Shown here: positions 2,052 through 52,242 of the stretch, in pieces
Layout of the letters: the number at the start of each line of letters is the position of its first letter
Position numbering within the stretch: the first letter of the stretch is position 1
Origin: Gammaproteobacteria bacterium
GTDB taxonomy: Bacteria > Pseudomonadota > Gammaproteobacteria > JAJDOJ01
DNA: 52,934 bases
NCBI GenBank assembly: GCA_022340215.1
Contig: JAJDOJ010000202.1
Coordinates: forward strand, 1-52,934
Reading direction: 5' to 3'
Position numbers and translations under genes: made by a program
Notes under the pieces: generated by a model
The model's database searches: none
What the model was told of the DNA's origin: nothing
What the model saw: the letters and a program-made list of their open reading frames with translations, nothing else

Positions 2052-3424
2052 TGGAGAGGACGCTCGAACATTACCTGCCGAAGATCGAGGCCCTCGCTCG
2101 CGAGAGTGGTCTGGTGTATTTCCCGGTCGACTACGAGCAGGTCCCGGACAGCTTCATGATGGAGGTGGCGGTCTACGGCCTGCCGGTGAGGATGCCGCAC
2201 TGGTCGTTCGGTGTGCGGTATATCTACCAGTTCGTGCAGCACCGCATGGGGCATTCCCGCCTGTTCGAGGTCGTGTTTCCCGGAGATCCGGGCCGCGCCT
2301 ATCTGTCCCGCAACAACAGCGTGGCTGAGAACGTGCTGGTTGCCGCGCATGTACTGGGTCATGCGGATTTCTCTCGCAACAACCTGCTCTTCGAGGCGGC
2401 ACAGCGATCCGTCGGGTACCACATCGTAGAGCAGGCGGCCGTCCATGCCCGCGAGATCTCCCGGGCGATCGAGCGCCACGGCATCGATCGGGTCGAAGCG
2501 GTGCTGGATGCGGCACTGTCACTGGAGCAGTACATCGCGGTGGATCGCGATCTGACACGGCAGCCCTATCCGGAATACGTCGAGGAGAAGACGGAACCGG
2601 CCTCCTCGCCTTTCCGGTCTCGATACGATCGCCTGCCGGGCGGCGGGAGATCCCGGGGTGGTGTTGCCGAGCCGAAGCGTTCACCGATCCCGCCGCATCC
2701 GGAACACGATCTGCTCTGGTTCGTGGCCAACTACGCCCCGGAGATGGAGCCCTGGGAGAGGGATGTCTTCCTCGCCGTGAGGGAGGAGTCGTTCTATTTC
2801 TATCCCGTTTTCGCGTGCCAGATCATGAACGAGGGCTGGGCCAGCTACTGGCACGCGCGTCTGTTGCGCGAGGCGGATTTCCTGCCCCAGCAGATGTATC
2901 TGGAGGCGGTGAAGGCGCATTCTGACGTGGTCAGGCCGTACGCGGCCGGTCAGGAGGTCTCGCTGAAGATCAATCCCTATCACCTGGGATTCTTTATCTG
3001 GGAGGATATCGTCGAGAGCGGCGGCTTGGAGGCGGCGCGCAAGGTGATGCGCGAGAACGACGACTTCGGTTTCATTCGTAACCACCTGGAAGAGTCGCTC
3101 GCACGGAAACTCGATCTGTTCACCTGGGAGGCGAGGCGCAGCGGAGAGGTCAGGGCAAAGGCGTTCGATATCGACGCGATACGGGAGTTCGTCCTGTCGG
3201 GGAAGTTCAATTTTGGCGCACCCAGGGTACATGTCGCCGAAATGCGAGCGGACGGGACGCTCGTATTGGTGCACGAGCACGCGACCGACGGCCGCGGGCT
3301 GGACCGGCAGAGCGCCGAGAAGGTCATGGACTATCTGCTCCGGGTCTGGCGCCGGACGGTGGAACTGCGTACGGTGGACGCGAAGGGCGGTCCGTCAAGG
3401 ATCGTCAGGCAGCCTAAGGGTTAA
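2051..3424 (+). CDS. ycgB: SpoVR family protein (YcgB-like)
   Basis: 457/458-aa ORF (ATG 2051 or GTG 2048) translationally coupled to yeaH. Its length and sequence (…NEGWASYWHARLL…) are typical of SpoVR/YcgB. Confidence 0.85.
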   Translation: MERTLEHYLPKIEALARESGLVYFPVDYEQVPDSFMMEVAVYGLPVRMPHWSFGVRYIYQFVQHRMGHSRLFEVVFPGDPGRAYLSRNNSVAENVLVAAHVLGHADFSRNNLLFEAAQRSVGYHIVEQAAVHAREISRAIERHGIDRVEAVLDAALSLEQYIAVDRDLTRQPYPEYVEEKTEPASSPFRSRYDRLPGGGRSRGGVAEPKRSPIPPHPEHDLLWFVANYAPEMEPWERDVFLAVREESFYFYPVFACQIMNEGWASYWHARLLREADFLPQQMYLEAVKAHSDVVRPYAAGQEVSLKINPYHLGFFIWEDIVESGGLEAARKVMRENDDFGFIRNHLEESLARKLDLFTWEARRSGEVRAKAFDIDAIREFVLSGKFNFGAPRVHVAEMRADGTLVLVHEHATDGRGLDRQSAEKVMDYLLRVWRRTVELRTVDAKGGPSRIVRQPKG

Positions 3425-3476
3425 ACCCGCCGATTTCCTCTTTCGGCGGGGCTGCGGGGAGCCCTGGGCGGACAGG

Positions 3477-3531
3477 CAACCGTATTGCCTGGTTTCGGCG
3501 ATACGGTTGTTGTATTTAATTTGTTGTTTTT
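3477..3531 (+). terminator. Rho-independent terminator of the prkA-yeaH-spoVR operon
   Basis: Perfect 9-bp stem CAACCGTAT (3477-3485) / ATACGGTTG (3501-3509), followed by the T-rich tract TTGTATTTAATTTGTTGTTTTT. A second 8-bp hairpin, CCCGCCGA/TCGGCGGG at 3426-3450, lies just after the stop codon. Confidence 0.55.
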
Positions 3532-3537
3532 AAGTGG

Positions 3538-3660
3538 TTAAGTGCTCTAGGCATCCGGATCGCATTTGTGTTGCACTGACCTTGCATAGAGCGCAAGGAC
3601 TGTGACCAAAGCGGCGATGGATACGGCTATTGCGGAGAGCGTGAAGCTGTCGAGTGCCAT
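3538..3660 (-). CDS. Possible small membrane peptide (40 aa), hypothetical
   Basis: ATG at 3660 is preceded by AGGA at about -8. Translation is MALDSFTLSAIAVSIAALVTSLRSMQGQCNTNAIRMPRAL, a hydrophobic helix followed by a basic tail. It lies in an AT-rich intergenic island and is below the 60-aa cutoff of the ORF track. There is no homology support. Confidence 0.25.
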
Positions 3661-3824
3661 TTTTCAGTCCTCTGTGTTACGTCTCAGACATAATTAGTAT
3701 ATAAGAAAAAACTAATATATGATACCCGTTCGTCGGGAAATGTGATCCGCTTGCCTGTATGGCCCGAGTCGGGAAGTCGAGTCTCGGACGCCGAGGATGG
3801 CACCGCGACGCGTCGGTCGTGGCG

Positions 3825-4676
3825 CTAGCGCTGCGGCGGCGCGATGCCGGCCGCGGCGATCCGTCGCGCGACCTCGCGCAGATTCTCCATGTAGTCCGGG
3901 GAAAGTGGATCCAGGACCTCGACATGCCCGCCAATGGCGCGGGCGACCTGTTCAGCCAGCCGGCGGTCGAACTGTGGCTGGATGAAGACAACAGTGATGC
4001 CGTCGCGCTTCGCCTCGTCGATCAGCGCAATCAGCGCCCTGGCGCTGGGCTCCTTTGCGTCCTTCTCGATGGCGATCTGGGTGAGTCCGTACCGTTCGGC
4101 AAAGTGCCCCCAGGCGGGGTGATAGACCATGAATCGGGAGGTTGGCAGGTCGGAGAGCGTTTTGCGTAGCTCCACGTCCAGCGCACCGAGTTCCGCGTTC
4201 AATGCCGCATAACCGGCCTCGAACGCCGTCGCGTTACCGGGCGCGAGTGAGATCAGCGTGTCCCGTATGTTTCTCGCCATGTGACCGGCGAGCGGTGGAC
4301 TGGTCCAGACATGCGGATCGTGCCCGTCATGTTTCCCGTGCCTATCGCTTATCTGAACCTCGAGTCCCTCGCGTGCATCGAGGACTTCCATGTCAGGATT
4401 CGCCGAGCGGAATCTCGTCAGCCAGGCGTTTTCGAACGGGACACCGGTACGAACGTAGAGATCAGCGCCTGCGAGGTTCTTGACTTGTTTCGGCGTCGGC
4501 TCGTAGGTCGCCGGACTGAAGCCGGGCTGCACCATGGATTGAACCTGGACCCGCGGCCCTCCCACACGTTCAACGAGATACTCCAGCGGCGGCACGCTCA
4601 CCACGACCCGGATAGGTTCCGCGGCGCTGAGGGCCGGGGTGGCCAGTGCCAGCGACAAGACGAATCTCCACAACAT
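3825..4676 (-). CDS. Metal (Zn/Mn) ABC transporter substrate-binding protein, ZnuA/TroA family
   Basis: 283 aa with signal peptide MLWRFVLSLALATPALSA. It has a His-rich loop (HGKHDGHDPHVW, including the DPHxW motif) and C-terminal helices typical of cluster A-I binding proteins. No permease or ATPase gene is adjacent. Confidence 0.8.
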   Translation of the reverse strand: MLWRFVLSLALATPALSAAEPIRVVVSVPPLEYLVERVGGPRVQVQSMVQPGFSPATYEPTPKQVKNLAGADLYVRTGVPFENAWLTRFRSANPDMEVLDAREGLEVQISDRHGKHDGHDPHVWTSPPLAGHMARNIRDTLISLAPGNATAFEAGYAALNAELGALDVELRKTLSDLPTSRFMVYHPAWGHFAERYGLTQIAIEKDAKEPSARALIALIDEAKRDGITVVFIQPQFDRRLAEQVARAIGGHVEVLDPLSPDYMENLREVARRIAAAGIAPPQR

Positions 4677-4994
4677 TCACCCATACCTCGGCGCCAATCG
4701 AGAATCCTGCCCCCGGCCGCGTTCGGCGGGTCGATGCAGGGCAACCCCAGCGGGGGAAAGCCGGCCCAACGAGCCCGGTTCCGGGACTGGGCCGTTTTCG
4801 TTGGACATGCCGAACGACCGGTGAAGGGGCCCGTCCCGACGGCACTCGGTGCCGTCGCGGCAGTATAACCTTGCCCGCCATCCTGGGAGCGGTGGTATTG
4901 GCTGTCCAGTGGTGGAAATCGAGGTCTACGGCCGATTGGTTTTCTGGTAAAACGCTTCCCTTGTTCTCTTGGTTTGAGAAATTCGGATCGATCG

Positions 4995-5841
4995 ATGATC
5001 AAGTGTTCCCATCTCAACAGGGGGCCCGGCGACGGGCGTCGGCATCGGCTGCCGGTTCTCGTCCAGGCAATCTTGATGTGCGTGTTAGCGGTCAACGGTC
5101 AGGCGATCGCGGCGGCAGACGTCCGTTCCTCCACCGGAATCGTCGTTCCCGAAAGGCGCGTGACGCTGGCGGCGAAGATCGTGGGCCGGATTGCCGCGGT
5201 AAACGTCGAGGAGGGAGAGGCGGTGAGGGCCGGGGAACTGCTCATCGCGATCGACGATGCGGAACTCGCAGCGGACCTTGCCTCGGCGAGGGCGGCCCTG
5301 GATCAGGAAAACGTCAGTCTGGCGTATAAGGCCGGGCTGGACAGGCGTTACCAGACGTTGCTCAGGAAGAAATCGGTCTCGGCCGACCAGGCCGACGAGG
5401 CTGCGTTCAATCATGCCGCGGCGAAGGCACGGGTGGACCGGGCGAGGGCGCTGATTGAGAAGGCCGAAGCGATACTGCGCGAATCGAGGATCGAGGCACC
5501 GTTCGACGGGGTGATCGTCGCGCGTCACGCTGAGATCGGTCAGGTCACCGCGCCAGGGGAGGCACTCCTGGTTCTGGAAGACCAGAATACCCTCCGGTTT
5601 CGTACCGCTGTCAAAGAGTAAGGACATCCCGCATGTCTCTGTTGGGCAGCGGATCGTCGTGACCATCGGGGCGCTGGGTGACCTCGAGTTACCGGCGAAG
5701 ATAGACCGCCTGATTCCATCGGCCGACACGGACACCCACGAATTCGTGATCGAGGCGGTGTTGCCCGTGCACGACCACCTTCATCCCGGCATGTTTGGCA
5801 GGGCTCGGTTCGATGGCGATCCCGCATCACCTCCCCGGTAG
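4995..5841 (+). pseudogene. Efflux RND periplasmic adaptor (HlyD/MFP family), disrupted by a +1 frameshift
   Basis: ORF 4974/4995..5621 carries the lipoyl and coiled-coil parts (…RIAAVNVEEGEAVRAGELL…). It ends at the TAA in GAGTAAGG (about 5620). Skipping one base restores …VKE-KDIPHVSVGQRIVVTIGALGD…, which continues as ORF 5659..5841, the beta-barrel/MP part. Confidence 0.75.
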
Positions 5842-15304: not shown

Positions 15305-15359
15305 TAGGCGATTGCCGGAAAATGGCATACCAGATCGCGCCGGATATTCGTTCGTCATC
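15305..15359 (-). repeat. Half copy (right arm) of the palindromic MITE-like repeat
   Basis: TA-GGCGATTGCCGGAAAATGGCATACCAGATCGCGCCGGATATTCGTTCGTCATC is the reverse complement of the right arm of the elements at 24174 and 52081. Similarity stops after about 55 nt. Confidence 0.6.
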
Positions 15360-24173: not shown

Positions 24174-24336
24174 TAAGGCGATTTCTGTCATAATGACATA
24201 CGATGCTGTTTGTCTTTTCGTCCGTCCTCCGTGTTGCGACAACAGCGACATAGCTCGACTATGCGCCTGTTGTCGCGCCTCGATGACGAACGAAAATCCG
24301 GCGCGATGTGGTATGCCCTTTTCCGGCAATCGCCTA
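24174..24336 (+). repeat. Palindromic MITE-like repeat, full copy A
   Basis: The 163-nt element is bounded by TA. Its ends are TA-AGGCGATT… and …AATCGCC-TA (imperfect terminal inverted repeats). The core hairpin is GCGACAACAG-CGA-CATAG-ctcga-CTATG-CGC-CTGTTGTCGC. It is about 90% identical by eye to 52081-52242. Confidence 0.7.
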
Positions 24337-24729: not shown

Positions 24730-24808
24730 TATATAATTCCCGCGGTTGCCGTTTCGTCCCCTGCGAAACCTTAACACGAGGCCATTTCCCGTGGATCGCC
24801 GCGTCGTG

Positions 24809-24837
24809 TTGACAACAAACCAGCCGTGGCTTACAGT
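24809..24837 (+). promoter_or_regulatory. Sigma70-type promoter of the rubrerythrin operon
   Basis: TTGACA (24809-24814), a 17-nt spacer, then TACAGT (24832-24837), about 75 nt upstream of the ATG at 24913. Confidence 0.5.
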
Positions 24838-24845
24838 TCCACTCA

Positions 24846-24866
24846 GATTTAGAATTAGTCTAAATC
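24846..24866. promoter_or_regulatory. 21-bp palindromic operator, Fur-family (PerR-like) box candidate
   Basis: The sequence is GATTTAGAATTAGTCTAAATC. It has 8-bp perfect outer arms plus one inner pair, giving 10-1-10 symmetry with one mismatch. It starts 9 nt after the -10 hexamer. The central 7-1-7 (TTAGAAT-T-AGTCTAA) matches 11 of 14 positions of TTATAAT-N-ATTATAA. Confidence 0.5.
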
Positions 24867-24912: not shown

Positions 24913-25332
24913 ATGTCACTGAAAGGCTCAAAGACCGAGCAGTCACTCAAGGACGCATTCGCTGGTGAGTCACAGGCAAACCGCCGCTATCTGTATTTCG
25001 CATCCAAGGCCGATGTCGAAGGCTACAACGACGTCGCGGCCGTGTTCCGTTCCACCGCCGAAGGCGAGACCGGACACGCTCACGGCCATCTGGAATATCT
25101 CGAGGAGTGCGGCGACCCCGCCACTGGACTGCCCTTCGGCCCGACCGACGAGAACCTGAAGACGGCGATTGCCGGTGAAACGCACGAGTACACCGACATG
25201 TATCCCGGCATGGCCAAGGGCGCGCGTGAAGAAGGTTTCGACGAGATCGCCGACTGGTTCGAAACCTTGGCGAAAGCCGAGCGTTCTCACGCCAACCGAT
25301 TCCAGAAGGCTCTGAATTCTCTCGGCGACTGA
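24913..25332 (+). CDS. Rubrerythrin family protein without rubredoxin domain (erythrin type)
   Basis: 139 aa; …[13 protein letters not shown]…, EGETGHA…, …GETHEY… and …AERSHANRF are the four-helix diiron E/ExxH motifs. There is no C-terminal CxxC pair. GGAGG lies 9 nt upstream of the ATG. Confidence 0.85.
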
Positions 25333-25461
25333 AGCCGGACGAGAAGAAGTACGGGGCCGACGATCCGGTCCCGTCTTCCCTTATGCATACCGGCGCAGAT
25401 TCCCACCATCGTCCCGAGGCGGTAGGCCAGCGTACACCCGATCCAGGAGAGCGTTAAGAAA

Positions 25462-26808
25462 ATGGCGACAGCTACCGAAGGCCAGCGCGAAGGCAGCCTG
25501 GAGGCGCCCACGCGGCACCCGCTGGGTTGGCGCGGCCCGGAGTTCTACGACGAGGAATCGCTGTTCTCGGAACTGGAACGTGTCTACGACATCTGCCACG
25601 GATGTCGGCGGTGCGTCAGTCTGTGTAATTCGTTCCCCACACTGTTCGATCTCGTCGATGAATCGGACACCATGGAGGTCGACGGGGTCGACAAGAAGGA
25701 CTACTGGCAGGTGGTGGATCACTGTTATCTCTGCGATCTCTGTTACCTGACCAAGTGCCCCTACGTACCGCCTCACAAGTGGAACGTCGACTTCCCACAC
25801 CTCATGCTTCGGGCCAAGGCGGTCAAGTACAGGCAGGGAAAGGTCAAGCGCCGCGACAGAATCCTGACCTCAACGGACACCGTCGGTCGGCTCGCCGGTA
25901 TTCCGGTCGTGGTCCAGGCGGTCAACGCCGCGAATCACAACGGTGCAGCGCGTAAGCTGCTGCAGAAGACGCTTGGTATTCATGCCGATGCCGTTCTGCC
26001 CGAGTATCATTCGAAGACCGCCAGAAAGCGCCTTTCCGGCGTGCGCAGTCCAGTCACGAGCCCGGAGCCAGCCGGCAGGACGCGGGGACGTGTCGCCCTT
26101 TTCGCGACCTGCTATGGAGACCGGAACGAACCGCAGGTCGTCGAAGACCTTGCCAGTGTGTTTACGCACAACGGGATCGAGGTGACGCTGGCGAAAAAGG
26201 AACAGTGTTGCGGCATGCCGAAGCTGGAACTGGGAGACCTCGAGGCGGTCGAGGCTGCAAAGGACGCCAACATCCCGGTACTGACAGGCATGATCGACGA
26301 AGGCTGGGACATCGTCGCGCCGGTCCCGTCCTGTGTATTGATGTTCAAGCAGGAGCTCCCGCTGATGTTCCCCGACGACGAGGAGGTCGCCAGGGTTCGC
26401 GACCACATCTTCGATCCGTTCGAATACCTGATGATCCGTCACGCCGAAGGCAAGCTGAATACCGACTTCAAGAACCCGCTGGGCAAGGTCGCTTATCACG
26501 CTGCTTGCCATCTTCGAGTCCAGAAGATCGGTTTGAAGACTCGGGACCTGTTCAACCTCGTACCCGGAACCGAACTCGATGTGATCGAACGCTGTTCGGG
26601 GCACGACGGGACCTATGCCGTCAAGCAGGAGTATCACGAGATATCGATGAGAATCTGCCGTCCGGTGGTCACTCGTGTGAAGAAGGCCGAGGCCGACCAC
26701 TACGCCAGCGACTGCCCGATGGCCGGGCATCAGATCGAGAACGGTCTGAAGGATGACAGTGCGCCCGAACATCCCCTGACGCTGCTGCGACAGGCCTACG
26801 GGATCTGA
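25462..26808 (+). CDS. (Fe-S)-binding oxidoreductase, heterodisulfide reductase-related (2x[4Fe-4S] plus CCG domains; GlpC/HdrD-like)
   Basis: 448 aa with two ferredoxin-type motifs, CHGCRRCVSLC and CYLCDLCYLTKCP. It has a CCG motif (EQCCGMP) and a second Cys-rich repeat (ERCSGHDG). Confidence 0.85.
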   Translation: MATATEGQREGSLEAPTRHPLGWRGPEFYDEESLFSELERVYDICHGCRRCVSLCNSFPTLFDLVDESDTMEVDGVDKKDYWQVVDHCYLCDLCYLTKCPYVPPHKWNVDFPHLMLRAKAVKYRQGKVKRRDRILTSTDTVGRLAGIPVVVQAVNAANHNGAARKLLQKTLGIHADAVLPEYHSKTARKRLSGVRSPVTSPEPAGRTRGRVALFATCYGDRNEPQVVEDLASVFTHNGIEVTLAKKEQCCGMPKLELGDLEAVEAAKDANIPVLTGMIDEGWDIVAPVPSCVLMFKQELPLMFPDDEEVARVRDHIFDPFEYLMIRHAEGKLNTDFKNPLGKVAYHAACHLRVQKIGLKTRDLFNLVPGTELDVIERCSGHDGTYAVKQEYHEISMRICRPVVTRVKKAEADHYASDCPMAGHQIENGLKDDSAPEHPLTLLRQAYGI

Positions 26809-26835
26809 ACTAATTCTTTTAAGGAGCGAAAAAGG

Positions 26836-27141
26836 ATGTCGAACGAAGGCTATCACGAACCGATTGGCGAACTCTCTGACGAAACGCGCGACATGCATCG
26901 TGCGATCGTCTCGTTGATGGAAGAACTGGAGGCTGTGGACTGGTACAACCAAAGGGTCGACGCCTGTCGGGACGAGGAACTGCGGGCCATCCTCGCTCAC
27001 AATCGTGACGAGGAGAAGGAGCATGCTTCGATGGTACTGGAATGGATCAGGAGGCGCGATCCGACCATGGATAAAGAGCTGAAGGACTACCTGTTCACCG
27101 AGGCTCCCATCGCGTCGCTGGAGCACGGGCACAAGGAGTGA
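26836..27141 (+). CDS. Encapsulated-ferritin-like (EncFtn family) protein lacking a cargo-loading tail
   Basis: 101 aa. HRAIVSLMEELEAVDWYNQRVDACRDEELRAILAHNRDEEKEHASMVLEWIRRRD matches the EncFtn core as I recall it from the Rhodospirillum rubrum protein, including the Glu/ExxH metal ligands. The C-terminus (…TEAPIASLEHGHKE) has no Gly/Ser-Leu-rich targeting peptide. AAGGAG lies upstream. Confidence 0.75.
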   Translation: MSNEGYHEPIGELSDETRDMHRAIVSLMEELEAVDWYNQRVDACRDEELRAILAHNRDEEKEHASMVLEWIRRRDPTMDKELKDYLFTEAPIASLEHGHKE

Positions 27142-27146
27142 TTCTG

Positions 27147-27731
27147 ATGGACAAGTTGAAGCGGGGGGACCTCTACTCCCTCGAGAAGTATGCCGAGATC
27201 CGGCCCGAATTCCGCAAGCAGGTCATGGCGCACAAGAAAACCCGGCTTGTGCACATTGGCCCCAACGTCACGATCCATTTCGAGGACCGGTTGGTGATGC
27301 AGTACCAGATCCAGGAGATGCTGCGTGCCGAGCGCATCTACGAGGGTGAGGCCATCCTGGAAGAGTTGGACGCGTACAATCCGTTGATTCCCGACGGATC
27401 CAACTGGAAGGCGACACTGATGATCGAGTTTGAGGACGAGCATGAGCGGCAGCGCCAACTCGCCTTGCTCAAGGGACTCGAGGCCGCTACCTGGGTCCGC
27501 GTCGGCACCCTGGACAGGGTCCATCCGATCGCCAACGAGGACCTGGAACGCGAAACCGAGGAGAAGACCTCCTCGGTTCATTTCCTGCGTTTCGAGCTGA
27601 CCCCGGAGATGGTGGCCGCGGCACAGGACGGAGCGCCGATAGGGGTCGGTGTCGATCACCCGCGATACCGCTACGAGCTAGACGCGGTGCCCGAGGCGGT
27701 TCGGGACTCGCTGGTCAATGATCTAAGCTGA
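27147..27731 (+). CDS. DUF3501 family protein
   Basis: 194 aa. The ATG is preceded by AAGGAG with an 8-nt spacer and starts 5 nt after the EncFtn-like stop. The sequence (…VHIGPNVTIHFEDRLVMQYQIQEMLRAERI…) and its position next to rubrerythrin and a CCG Fe-S protein fit my recollection of this family. Confidence 0.7.
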   Translation: MDKLKRGDLYSLEKYAEIRPEFRKQVMAHKKTRLVHIGPNVTIHFEDRLVMQYQIQEMLRAERIYEGEAILEELDAYNPLIPDGSNWKATLMIEFEDEHERQRQLALLKGLEAATWVRVGTLDRVHPIANEDLERETEEKTSSVHFLRFELTPEMVAAAQDGAPIGVGVDHPRYRYELDAVPEAVRDSLVNDLS

Positions 27732-52080: not shown

Positions 52081-52242
52081 TAAGGCGATTTCTGTCAAAT
52101 GACATACCATCCAGCTTGTCTTTTCATCCGTCCCCTGTGTTGCGACAACAGTGACATAGTTCGACTATGCGCCTGATGTCGCGCCTTGATGACGAACGAA
52201 AATCCAGCGCGATCTGGTATGCCACTTTCCGGCAATCGCCTA
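52081..52242 (+). repeat. Palindromic MITE-like repeat, full copy B
   Basis: 162 nt, TA-flanked and in the same orientation as copy A. I counted about 16 substitutions and 1 indel relative to copy A by eye. The termini and central hairpin are the same. Confidence 0.7.

What the first reader, a model, noticed from the sequence alone, without database searches (positions are those of the whole stretch)
26836..27141. Encapsulated-ferritin homologue with no encapsulin shell gene and no targeting peptide in this window
The 101-aa protein keeps the EncFtn core, including the Glu and ExxH ferroxidase-centre ligands (EELEAVDWY…, HNRDEEKEHA).

Classical EncFtn genes sit directly upstream of an HK97-fold encapsulin shell gene and carry a C-terminal Gly/Ser/Leu-rich cargo-loading peptide. 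Here the downstream gene is DUF3501, no shell-like ORF exists in the 52.9 kb, and the C-terminus (…APIASLEHGHKE) does not resemble a loading peptide.

EncFtn alone oxidises iron but, as far as is known, cannot store it without a shell. A free-standing copy therefore implies either a different partner (possibly DUF3501 or the Fe-S protein) or a different role.
Basis: partly seen in the sequence, partly recalled or inferred. Interest (0 to 1): 0.65.

Follow-up and report, generated by a model that had tools for sequence, protein, structure and literature searches.

The report
Shell-less EncFtn in rubrerythrin operon
This small iron-oxidising protein belongs to an already described, widespread class of encapsulated-ferritin relatives that have lost the shell-targeting tail; here it is co-transcribed with a rubrerythrin peroxide-defence gene set behind an Irr-type iron-control operator, which hints at its still unknown job.

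Summary
Window 26836-27141 (+) encodes a 101-aa EncFtn-like protein (Pfam PF22277, E 2e-44). All ferroxidase-centre ligands are present, there is no cargo-loading peptide, and the window has no shell gene.

It is not a new kind. It is 80% identical to NE0167 of Nitrosomonas europaea (PDB 3K6C, ten chains). It belongs to the published tail-less class called "Non-EncFtn" (2016) or "s-FLP" (2024), whose function is unknown.

More than 8000 homologues of 95-101 aa were found. Only 2 of 50, and 2 of 29, genomes carrying such a gene also have an intact family-1 shell.

This genome's only Linocin_M18 hit is a shell gene lacking about 115 N-terminal residues, fused in frame to a second EncFtn on another contig.

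What I add is context:
- The gene lies in an rbr-rfo-flp-DUF3501 operon, and metatranscriptome contigs span its gene junctions.
- The promoter carries an ICE-type palindrome that occurs exactly once in the genome. The only near-match sits in front of an Irr-like Fur-family gene.
- Tail-less genes lie next to DUF3501 in 10 of 29 related families.

Best reading: a free cytoplasmic ferroxidase ring in an iron/peroxide-defence module. Verdict: new member of a known kind, moderate interest.

The parts
24809..24837 (+). Sigma-70-like promoter of the operon (TTGACA, 17 nt, TACAGT)
   Evidence: Consensus scan, 10 of 12 positions matched. This is a pattern match only. RNA contigs begin nearby at 24761-24763, but contigs carry no strand information.
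24846..24866 (.). ICE-type palindromic operator GATTTAGAATTAGTCTAAATC (core TTTAGA-N5-TCTAAA at 24848-24864), 9 nt after the -10 hexamer
   Evidence: The exact core occurs once in the 3.89-Mb genome, against 0.026 expected. It is conserved upstream of rbr in L008, L022, L023 (two copies), L083, L092 (two copies), L120, L121 and L123, and in weaker form in L018, L109 and L122. It fits the published Irr ICE consensus TTTAGAA-N3-TTCTAAA with one mismatch.
24913..25332 (+). Erythrin-type ('aerobic-type') rubrerythrin, 139 aa, without a rubredoxin domain
   Evidence: Pfam PF02915 Rubrerythrin, E 4.6e-30. It is 98% identical in L008.
25462..26808 (+). RFO: GlpC/HdrD-like Fe-S oxidoreductase with a CCG domain, 448 aa
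   Evidence: Pfam CCG at 55.5 bits plus weak 4Fe-4S dicluster hits. It matches GlpC models below their cut-offs. Cardenas et al. 2016 named this protein RFO.
26836..27141 (+). Tail-less EncFtn-like protein (s-FLP / Non-EncFtn class), 101 aa; the finding itself
   Evidence: It is 80% identical to PDB 3K6C. Ligands E30, Y37, E60 and H63 are present. RNA contigs run through it (X22 25938-27300, X15 26626-27103).
27147..27731 (+). DUF3501 protein, 194 aa from ATG 27147. The SD AAGGAG at 27132-27137 lies inside the end of the EncFtn-like gene. An alternative GTG start at 27138 overlaps the stop codon.
   Evidence: Pfam PF12007, E 1e-69. Homologues start MDKLKR.... The AF2 model has pLDDT 90.2 and matches only PDB 3FJV, which has unknown function.

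Best explanation
The 101-aa protein is a shell-independent member of the EncFtn fold (the published s-FLP / Non-EncFtn class).

**Assembly and chemistry (inferred).** It probably forms the same ring-shaped decamer as its 80%-identical homologue NE0167. Di-iron ferroxidase centres would form at subunit interfaces from E30, Y37, E60 and H63. It would oxidise labile Fe(II) in the cytoplasm rather than inside a compartment.

**Operon (shown).** In this genome it is the third gene of a four-gene operon: rubrerythrin, CCG Fe-S oxidoreductase (RFO), EncFtn-like, DUF3501. Metatranscriptome contigs run across the gene junctions.

**Regulation (motif shown, binding inferred).** An ICE-type operator follows the -10 box. 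It is presumably bound by the genome's Irr-like Fur-family repressor.

**Proposed working (inferred).** When iron is plentiful or peroxide stress inactivates the repressor, the operon is switched on. Rubrerythrin then reduces H2O2 with electrons delivered through RFO. The EncFtn-like ring removes Fenton-active Fe(II). The Fe(III) goes to one of the three classical ferritin-type proteins encoded elsewhere, or to DUF3501.
For: **Family and ligands**
- Domain matches and ligand conservation.
- PDB 3K6C (NE0167) has 10 chains in its one entry.
- The 2024 review states that it forms a decamer.

**No tail, no shell**
- Tail-less proteins are 95-103 aa; shell-adjacent ones are 125-144 aa with targeting peptides.
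- Only 2 of 50 genomes with close homologues have Linocin_M18.
- Among 151 related families, 2 of 29 tail-less carriers have a full shell, each with its own canonical EncFtn beside it.
- The own genome has only a truncated shell fusion, no family-2A hit, and one phage-type capsid fragment on a phage-like contig.

**Operon**
- Gaps are 129, 27 and 5 nt.
- RNA contigs span rbr-rfo and rfo-flp-DUF3501.
- The same four genes in the same synteny occur in Thioalkalivibrio sulfidiphilus.

**Linkage**
- The gene lies next to DUF3501 in 10 of 29 families.
- DUF3501 is present in 22 of 29 carriers versus 38 of 122 others (odds ratio 6.9, p 1.5e-5).
- In G130 the orthologous locus reads rbr-DUF3501-EncFtn(with targeting peptide)-encapsulin.

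**Regulation**
- The ICE core is unique in the genome, and the only 1-mismatch hit lies 21 nt upstream of an Irr-like gene.
- The Irr-like gene co-occurs with DUF3501 (45/15/13/78, odds ratio 18, p 4e-14).
- It sits next to DUF3501 in four genomes.
- A rubrerythrin-like gene is a classic Irr/ICE target in Bradyrhizobium.

**Iron storage elsewhere**
- Three Ferritin-domain genes lie on other contigs.
Against: - No biochemical data exist for any tail-less member. Ferroxidase activity is inferred from conserved ligands only.
- Most close homologues (73 of 80 loci) are solitary genes with no conserved neighbour and no ICE box. Operon membership is therefore not general for the class, and the partner model may hold only for a subset.
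- DUF3501 has no recognisable function.
- The Irr-like protein scores just below the NCBIfam IrrA and Irr cut-offs (143.5 vs 150; 136 vs 170).
- The co-occurrence tests treat one genome per family as independent. That is only approximately true.
Confidence: 0.6

Rival explanations
1. Redox partner rather than iron detoxifier. The di-iron ring would relay electrons, or act as a second peroxidase/oxidase, between RFO and the rubredoxin-less rubrerythrin. It would stand in for the lost rubredoxin domain.
For: It sits between RFO and DUF3501 in the operon. Cardenas et al. note that the electron route to aerobic-type rubrerythrin is unresolved. The link to rubrerythrin/DUF3501 recurs in two architectures.
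Against: About two thirds of DUF3501 clusters in related families lack an adjacent EncFtn-like gene (60 genomes have DUF3501; 10 have adjacency). It therefore cannot be an obligatory electron carrier. Known EncFtn chemistry is substrate-iron oxidation, not electron shuttling.
Confidence: 0.15
2. Iron donor or repair factor. The ring would hold or deliver iron to build or re-metallate the di-iron site of rubrerythrin or the Fe-S clusters of RFO after oxidative damage.
For: The same operon linkage applies. The His-rich short tail (...LEHGHKE) is conserved in the 101-aa subgroup.
Against: There is no direct evidence. Solitary copies dominate the family.
Confidence: 0.12
3. Cryptic cargo. The protein would still be encapsulated through an unrecognised short C-terminal signal (as the 2024 review allows), or by mixing into decamers with a tail-bearing paralogue.
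For: The review lists LFTD(E/N)KPIAHE as a putative, untested signal. This genome does hold a second EncFtn and a shell-derived gene.
Against: 48 of 50 and 27 of 29 carrier genomes have no Linocin_M18 gene. The own genome's shell gene lacks model positions 1-115. From general knowledge of the fold, that part includes the N-terminal helix and the E-loop.
Confidence: 0.05

Closest known systems
NE0167 of Nitrosomonas europaea (PDB 3K6C), the 's-FLP' / 'Non-EncFtn' class
   Same: It is 80% identical over 93 residues. Length is about 95-101 aa. It has the same short tail type (LFT-x-x-PIA...), no targeting peptide, and the same ligands.
   Different: The window protein has six extra residues (SLEHGHKE-type ending). 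Its operon context is documented here. No function is published for either protein.
Encapsulated ferritin (EncFtn) of Rhodospirillum rubrum (PDB 5DA5) and Haliangium ochraceum (5N5F, 7OE2)
   Same: Same two-helix fold family. It is 64% identical to the R. rubrum core. The ferroxidase centre and entry-site residues are identical.
   Different: Those proteins carry a 30-40-residue disordered tail ending in SLGIGSLK. They lie directly upstream of a family-1 shell gene and act inside it. Here neither feature is present.
Aerobic-type rubrerythrin cluster RBR-RFO-DUF3501 (Cardenas, Quatrini and Holmes 2016)
   Same: The same three genes are present with the same domain content.
   Different: That paper does not mention an EncFtn-like gene; its text has no 'encapsul' term, and its figure 3 legend lists only 'HYP'. 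Here the EncFtn-like gene is inserted between RFO and DUF3501, as in 10 of 60 DUF3501-bearing related families.
Irr / ICE regulon of alpha-proteobacteria (blr7895 rubrerythrin-like gene and bfr of Bradyrhizobium)
   Same: The palindrome fits TTTAGAA-N3-TTCTAAA. It lies at the promoter of a rubrerythrin gene. A Cys-poor Fur-family protein with an HHH motif is encoded in the genome.
   Different: The host is related to Thioalkalivibrio, a gammaproteobacterium, whereas the 2006 survey found Irr/ICE only in alpha-proteobacteria. The regulator scores just under the Irr model cut-offs. Binding is untested.

Membership tests
EncFtn (cargo of family-1 encapsulins) | EncFtn-like two-helix domain | tested here: met
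   PF22277 at 149.6 bits. TIGR04535 at 138.6 bits, above its cut-off of 125.
EncFtn (cargo of family-1 encapsulins) | Ferroxidase-centre ligands (Glu32, Tyr39, Glu62, His65 of the R. rubrum protein) | tested here: met
   E30, Y37, E60 and H63 align and are invariant in the alignment.
EncFtn (cargo of family-1 encapsulins) | C-terminal cargo-loading (targeting) peptide | tested here: not met
   The TIGR04535 match stops at profile position 93 of 114. The protein ends ...PIASLEHGHKE. Shell-adjacent relatives carry SLGIGSLK or LTVGSLK-type ends.
EncFtn (cargo of family-1 encapsulins) | Gene directly beside a family-1 shell gene | tested here: not met
   The neighbours are RFO and DUF3501. No Linocin_M18 match lies on contig C55.
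EncFtn (cargo of family-1 encapsulins) | Intact shell gene somewhere in the genome | tested here: not met
   The only PF04454 hit covers profile 116-252 and is fused to another EncFtn. About 440 bp are missing relative to the intact operon in L090. The genome is 98.6% complete in 272 contigs, so a missed gene cannot be fully excluded.
s-FLP / Non-EncFtn (tail-less EncFtn homologues) | About 95-100 aa, EncFtn core, short tail of the LFT-x-x-PIA type, no targeting peptide | tested here: met
   
s-FLP / Non-EncFtn (tail-less EncFtn homologues) | Occurs in genomes without encapsulin | tested here: met
   48 of 50 genomes with close homologues lack PF04454. So do 27 of 29 related-family carriers.
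s-FLP / Non-EncFtn (tail-less EncFtn homologues) | Decameric ring | not testable with these tools
   This is inferred from 80% identity to 3K6C, which has 10 chains and is described as a decamer in the review.
Aerobic-type rubrerythrin cluster (RBR-RFO-DUF3501) | Rubredoxin-less rubrerythrin, CCG Fe-S oxidoreductase and DUF3501 co-localised | tested here: met
   All three domains are found on the same strand within 2.9 kb.
Irr / ICE regulon | ICE palindrome TTTAGAA-N3-TTCTAAA at the promoter | tested here: met
   Window 24848-24864 reads TTTAGAATTAGTCTAAA, one mismatch to the consensus. It is unique in the genome and conserved in rbr-cluster loci.
Irr / ICE regulon | Irr-type Fur-family regulator encoded in the genome | tested here: inconclusive
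   C260:921-1349 scores 143.5 bits against IrrA (cut-off 150) and 136.1 against Irr (cut-off 170). PerR models score far lower, at most 75 bits.
Irr / ICE regulon | Regulator binds the operator and responds to iron or haem | not testable with these tools
   This needs EMSA and expression assays.

The most novel reading that the evidence does not exclude
The tail-less EncFtn proteins arose from encapsulated ferritins inside the rubrerythrin locus. One genome still has rbr-DUF3501-EncFtn(with targeting peptide)-encapsulin at the orthologous site. The tail-less proteins would be a working component of the aerobic rubrerythrin peroxide/iron-defence system, under an Irr/ICE-type circuit that operates well outside the alpha-proteobacteria. 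From that operon the gene would later have spread as a solitary, extremely conserved gene across Proteobacteria.
Probability: 0.3. Interest if true: 0.65.

Novelty: new member of a known kind. Interest (0 to 1): 0.42.

Why it matters
Tail-less EncFtn homologues are numerous: more than 8000 database proteins at 80-92% identity. They are strikingly conserved, yet no function is published for them.

This case shows three things:
- They are truly shell-independent.
- A basal subset is co-transcribed with rubrerythrin, RFO and DUF3501.
- That operon carries an Irr-type operator.

This gives a concrete, testable setting for their role, namely iron/peroxide defence. Cultured organisms are available for the test (Thioalkalivibrio sulfidiphilus, Nitrosomonas europaea).

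Two further points follow:
- The automatic name 'encapsulin-associated ferritin-like protein' is misleading for this class, although the protein passes the TIGR04535 cut-off.
- Irr/ICE-like control seems common in gammaproteobacterial families (58 of 151 sampled). An earlier survey found it only in alpha-proteobacteria.

Tried and rejected
- **Conserved neighbours of the solitary copies.** I clustered all ORFs within 3.5 kb in 80 loci. Nothing recurred beyond the 7 rbr-cluster loci.
- **ICE or other shared motif upstream of solitary copies.** None was found; there were only chance 2-mismatch hits.
- **DUF3501 function through structure.** The AF2 model is good (pLDDT 90.2), but its only PDB neighbour is 3FJV, itself of unknown function.
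- **Other shell families.** The NF041162 (family 2A) search found nothing. It also rang in no control genome, so it is weak evidence. The single PF05065 hit lies on a 5.5-kb phage-like contig with a terminase gene.
- **C197 fusion as an assembly error.** This is unlikely. Independent per-run contigs of two runs (X1, X2) cross the junction without a difference. In a third run (X3) the contigs stop on either side of it. An intact-type allele fragment exists in another sample.
- **Gene context of NE0167.** I tried to find it through the supplements of Cardenas et al. and got no hit.
The regulator scores far better against Irr models than PerR models, and the motif fits the ICE consensus better.

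Full report
**1. Observation**

Window 26836-27141 (+) is a 101-aa ORF. An AAGGAG ribosome-binding site lies 9 nt upstream of its ATG. The protein matches Pfam PF22277 (EncFtn-like) at 149.6 bits, E 2.2e-44. It passes the NCBIfam TIGR04535 'encapsulin-associated ferritin-like protein' cut-off (138.6 vs 125). Only profile positions 1-93 of 114 are matched, so the part of the model that holds the linker and loading peptide has no counterpart.

Against the PDB, the best hit is 3K6C, 'uncharacterized protein NE0167' (E 1.2e-46; 74 of 93 residues identical, 80%). The R. rubrum and H. ochraceum EncFtn structures follow.

The R. rubrum ferroxidase-centre residues E32, Y39, E62 and H65 correspond to E30, Y37, E60 and H63. 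The entry-site residues E31 and E34 correspond to E29 and E32. All are present.

The protein ends ...LFTEAPIASLEHGHKE. Shell-adjacent EncFtns fetched from related genomes are 125-144 aa. They end in SLGIGSLK, LTVGSLK, FTIGSLK or similar peptides.

**2. Is there a shell anywhere in the genome?**

The window is contig C55 of a 3.89-Mb, 272-contig assembly (98.6% complete). Public runs that hold its sequence are salt-marsh and related metagenomes.

PF04454 (Linocin_M18) hits only C197:5531-5935, and only profile positions 116-252 of 253. The same open frame holds a second EncFtn-like domain. Read from its likely ATG, this is a 248-aa protein. Residues 8-91 are EncFtn, and residues 98-232 are the C-terminal half of a shell protein.

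The closest database relatives of the shell half are ordinary 266-aa shells at 80-86% identity. One such operon (L090) has a separate 127-aa EncFtn with a tail ending FTVGPMKETP, directly upstream of the shell gene. A blastn comparison of L090 with C197 shows that about 440 bp are missing. The missing part covers the EncFtn tail plus the first ~115 shell codons. Flanking synteny is retained.

Logan contigs of two runs cross the junction without a difference. In a third run the contigs stop on each side of it. A metagenome fragment (L091) is identical downstream but has an intact-type sequence upstream. The deletion is therefore probably a real allele.

Other shell candidates:
- A family-2A shell model found nothing, though that search had no positive control.
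- The single HK97 Phage_capsid hit lies on a 5.5-kb phage-like contig next to a terminase gene.

So no intact shell gene was found in the assembly.

**3. It belongs to a known class**

He et al. 2016 already separate 'Non-EncFtn' proteins from encapsulin-associated ones. They used 3K6C as the molecular-replacement search model. A 2024 review calls the class 's-FLP'. It notes the 3K6C decamer and the short tail LFTD(E/N)KPIAHE, and states that their encapsulation status and role are unclear.

The class is very large. The homology search returned 8000 scored hits, the cap. The best 120 are 94-131 aa long (most 95-101 aa) and 73-93% identical, and they include the Thioalkalivibrio sulfidiphilus and Marinobacterium proteins.

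Shell genes are rare in carrier genomes:
- Of 50 genomes holding close homologues, only 2 have any Linocin_M18 match.
- Among 151 related genomes (almost one per family of the class), 29 carry a tail-less copy that is not beside a shell. Only 2 of these also have a full shell, and each of those shells has its own tail-bearing EncFtn beside it.

**4. Context**

In the window the gene is third in the series rbr (24913-25332), rfo (25462-26808), flp (26836-27141) and DUF3501 (27147-27731). The gaps are 129, 27 and 5 nt.

Cardenas et al. 2016 described the RBR-RFO-DUF3501 cluster of 'aerobic-type' rubrerythrins. They did not mention an EncFtn-like gene.

T. sulfidiphilus has the same four genes with the same flanks: dxs-ispA-xseB on one side and radA further on.

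Salt-marsh metatranscriptome contigs are near-identical to the window (0-1 differing letter in the contigs cited below). They cover the operon and cross the gene junctions:
- X15 25233-26619 spans rbr-rfo.
- X22 25938-27300 spans rfo-flp-DUF3501.
- X21 27102-27344 spans flp-DUF3501.

Coverage ends at about 27650. Contig depth is higher over rbr than downstream, but it is a poor measure of expression.

**5. How general is the linkage?**

Among the 80 best genome loci, only 7 have the cluster. The other 73 have no conserved neighbour at all.

The family-level sample gives these figures:
- 10 of 29 tail-less copies lie next to DUF3501.
- DUF3501 is present somewhere in 22 of 29 carriers versus 38 of 122 non-carriers (odds ratio 6.9, Fisher p 1.5e-5).

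In genome G130 the orthologous locus, next to ispA-dxs, reads rbr-DUF3501-EncFtn-encapsulin. That EncFtn is 128 aa and ends in the targeting peptide ...LTVGSLIK.

A quick tree of 99 core sequences places the shell-adjacent proteins outside. All but one of them lie there. The tail-less ones form one nested group. The DUF3501-adjacent members lie at its base, and the solitary ones form a shallow derived cluster. Only 96 columns were available and support is weak. I treat this as suggestive only.

**6. Regulation**

A TTGACA-17-TACAGT promoter-like site is followed by the palindrome GATTTAGAATTAGTCTAAATC.

- The core TTTAGA-N5-TCTAAA occurs exactly once in the genome, against 0.026 expected.
- The only one-mismatch hit lies 21 nt upstream of a Fur-family gene on contig C260.
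- That 142-aa protein has no CxxC pairs and carries an HHH motif.
- It scores 143.5 bits on NCBIfam IrrA and 136 on Irr, just below their cut-offs. PerR models reach at most 75 bits.

The palindrome is conserved upstream of rbr in every cluster locus examined. It fits the published ICE consensus TTTAGAA-N3-TTCTAAA. Irr is known to repress a rubrerythrin-like gene, blr7895, and bfr in Bradyrhizobium.

Across the 151 genomes, the Irr-like gene and DUF3501 co-occur strongly (45/15/13/78, odds ratio 18, p 4e-14). They are adjacent in four genomes. Rodionov et al. 2006 reported no Irr/ICE outside alpha-proteobacteria, so this looks like an extension of that picture. Binding is untested.

**7. Mechanism**

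Shown:
- domain, ligands, absence of a tail, and absence of a usable shell;
- operon arrangement, with RNA contigs spanning the gene junctions;
- a conserved operator.

Inferred:
- decamer formation and ferroxidase activity, from 80% identity to 3K6C and from identical ligands;
- repression by the Irr-like protein;
- cooperation with rubrerythrin and RFO in peroxide/iron defence.

The genome has three ordinary Ferritin-domain genes elsewhere. Storage therefore need not be done by this protein.

DUF3501 remains opaque. A confident model (pLDDT 90.2) matches only PDB 3FJV, which has unknown function.

Rival readings are an electron relay, an iron donor or repair factor, and a cryptic cargo. They are listed separately with their odds.

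**8. Verdict**

The useful additions are:
- the operon and regulon context;
- the G130 'link' locus;
- the decayed shell locus in the same genome.

Together these make the open question of what tail-less EncFtns do more directly testable.

Noticed in passing
Own genome contig C197 (L007 5480-6226, minus strand): A 248-aa in-frame fusion of an EncFtn domain to the C-terminal half of a family-1 shell. It arose by a deletion of about 440 bp in a canonical operon. It is transcribed at a low level. Other in-frame EncFtn-shell fusions with different junctions exist in databases: P0223 (222 aa), P0176 (167 aa) and P0143 (161 aa).
   Followed up: partly
L109 (G130:C6:24500-34500), 3079-5619 minus strand: Next to ispA-dxs, the orthologous locus reads rbr-DUF3501-EncFtn-encapsulin. 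The EncFtn is 128 aa and ends in the targeting peptide LTVGSLIK. A weak ICE-like box (GTTAGACTTAGTCTAAC) lies upstream of rbr. No RFO gene is present in this copy.
   Followed up: partly
Own genome C260:921-1349 (minus) and box at 1370-1386; L100, L103, L105: An Irr-like Fur-family gene is preceded by an ICE-like box, which suggests autoregulation. Homologues at E <= 1e-15 occur in 58 of 151 related families. This is unexpected, because a 2006 survey found Irr/ICE only in alpha-proteobacteria.
   Followed up: partly
window 24174-24336 (also 52081-52242, 15305-15359): This 163-nt MITE-like repeat gives 362 blastn hits in the 3.9-Mb genome, 243 of them at least 120 nt long. Copies also flank the C197 and C260 genes discussed here.
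   Followed up: partly
window 24913-27731: In four metatranscriptomes, contig depth over rbr is several-fold higher than over rfo, flp and DUF3501. This may reflect partial termination or processing in the 129-nt rbr-rfo spacer. Contig depth is a poor measure of expression.
   Followed up: no
L013, L019, L086 (upstream of the solitary EncFtn-like gene): The roughly 50 nt upstream regions are nearly the same (..TATCACAATCATTACATCAATT..GAGGAGATAAAAATG) in genomes labelled Halieaceae, Psychromonas and Paracoccaceae. This suggests horizontal transfer of the gene together with its promoter.
   Followed up: no
window 26836-27141: The protein passes NCBIfam TIGR04535. Annotation pipelines will therefore name it 'encapsulin-associated ferritin-like protein', as they do for the T. 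sulfidiphilus orthologue, although 48 of 50 sampled carrier genomes have no Linocin_M18 (family-1 encapsulin) gene.
   Followed up: yes
L089 (G049:C25:47665-47994): A second partial Linocin_M18 match (profile 145-252) lies in a 338-aa open frame in a genome labelled Acidobacteria that also carries a tail-less EncFtn. I did not examine it.
   Followed up: no
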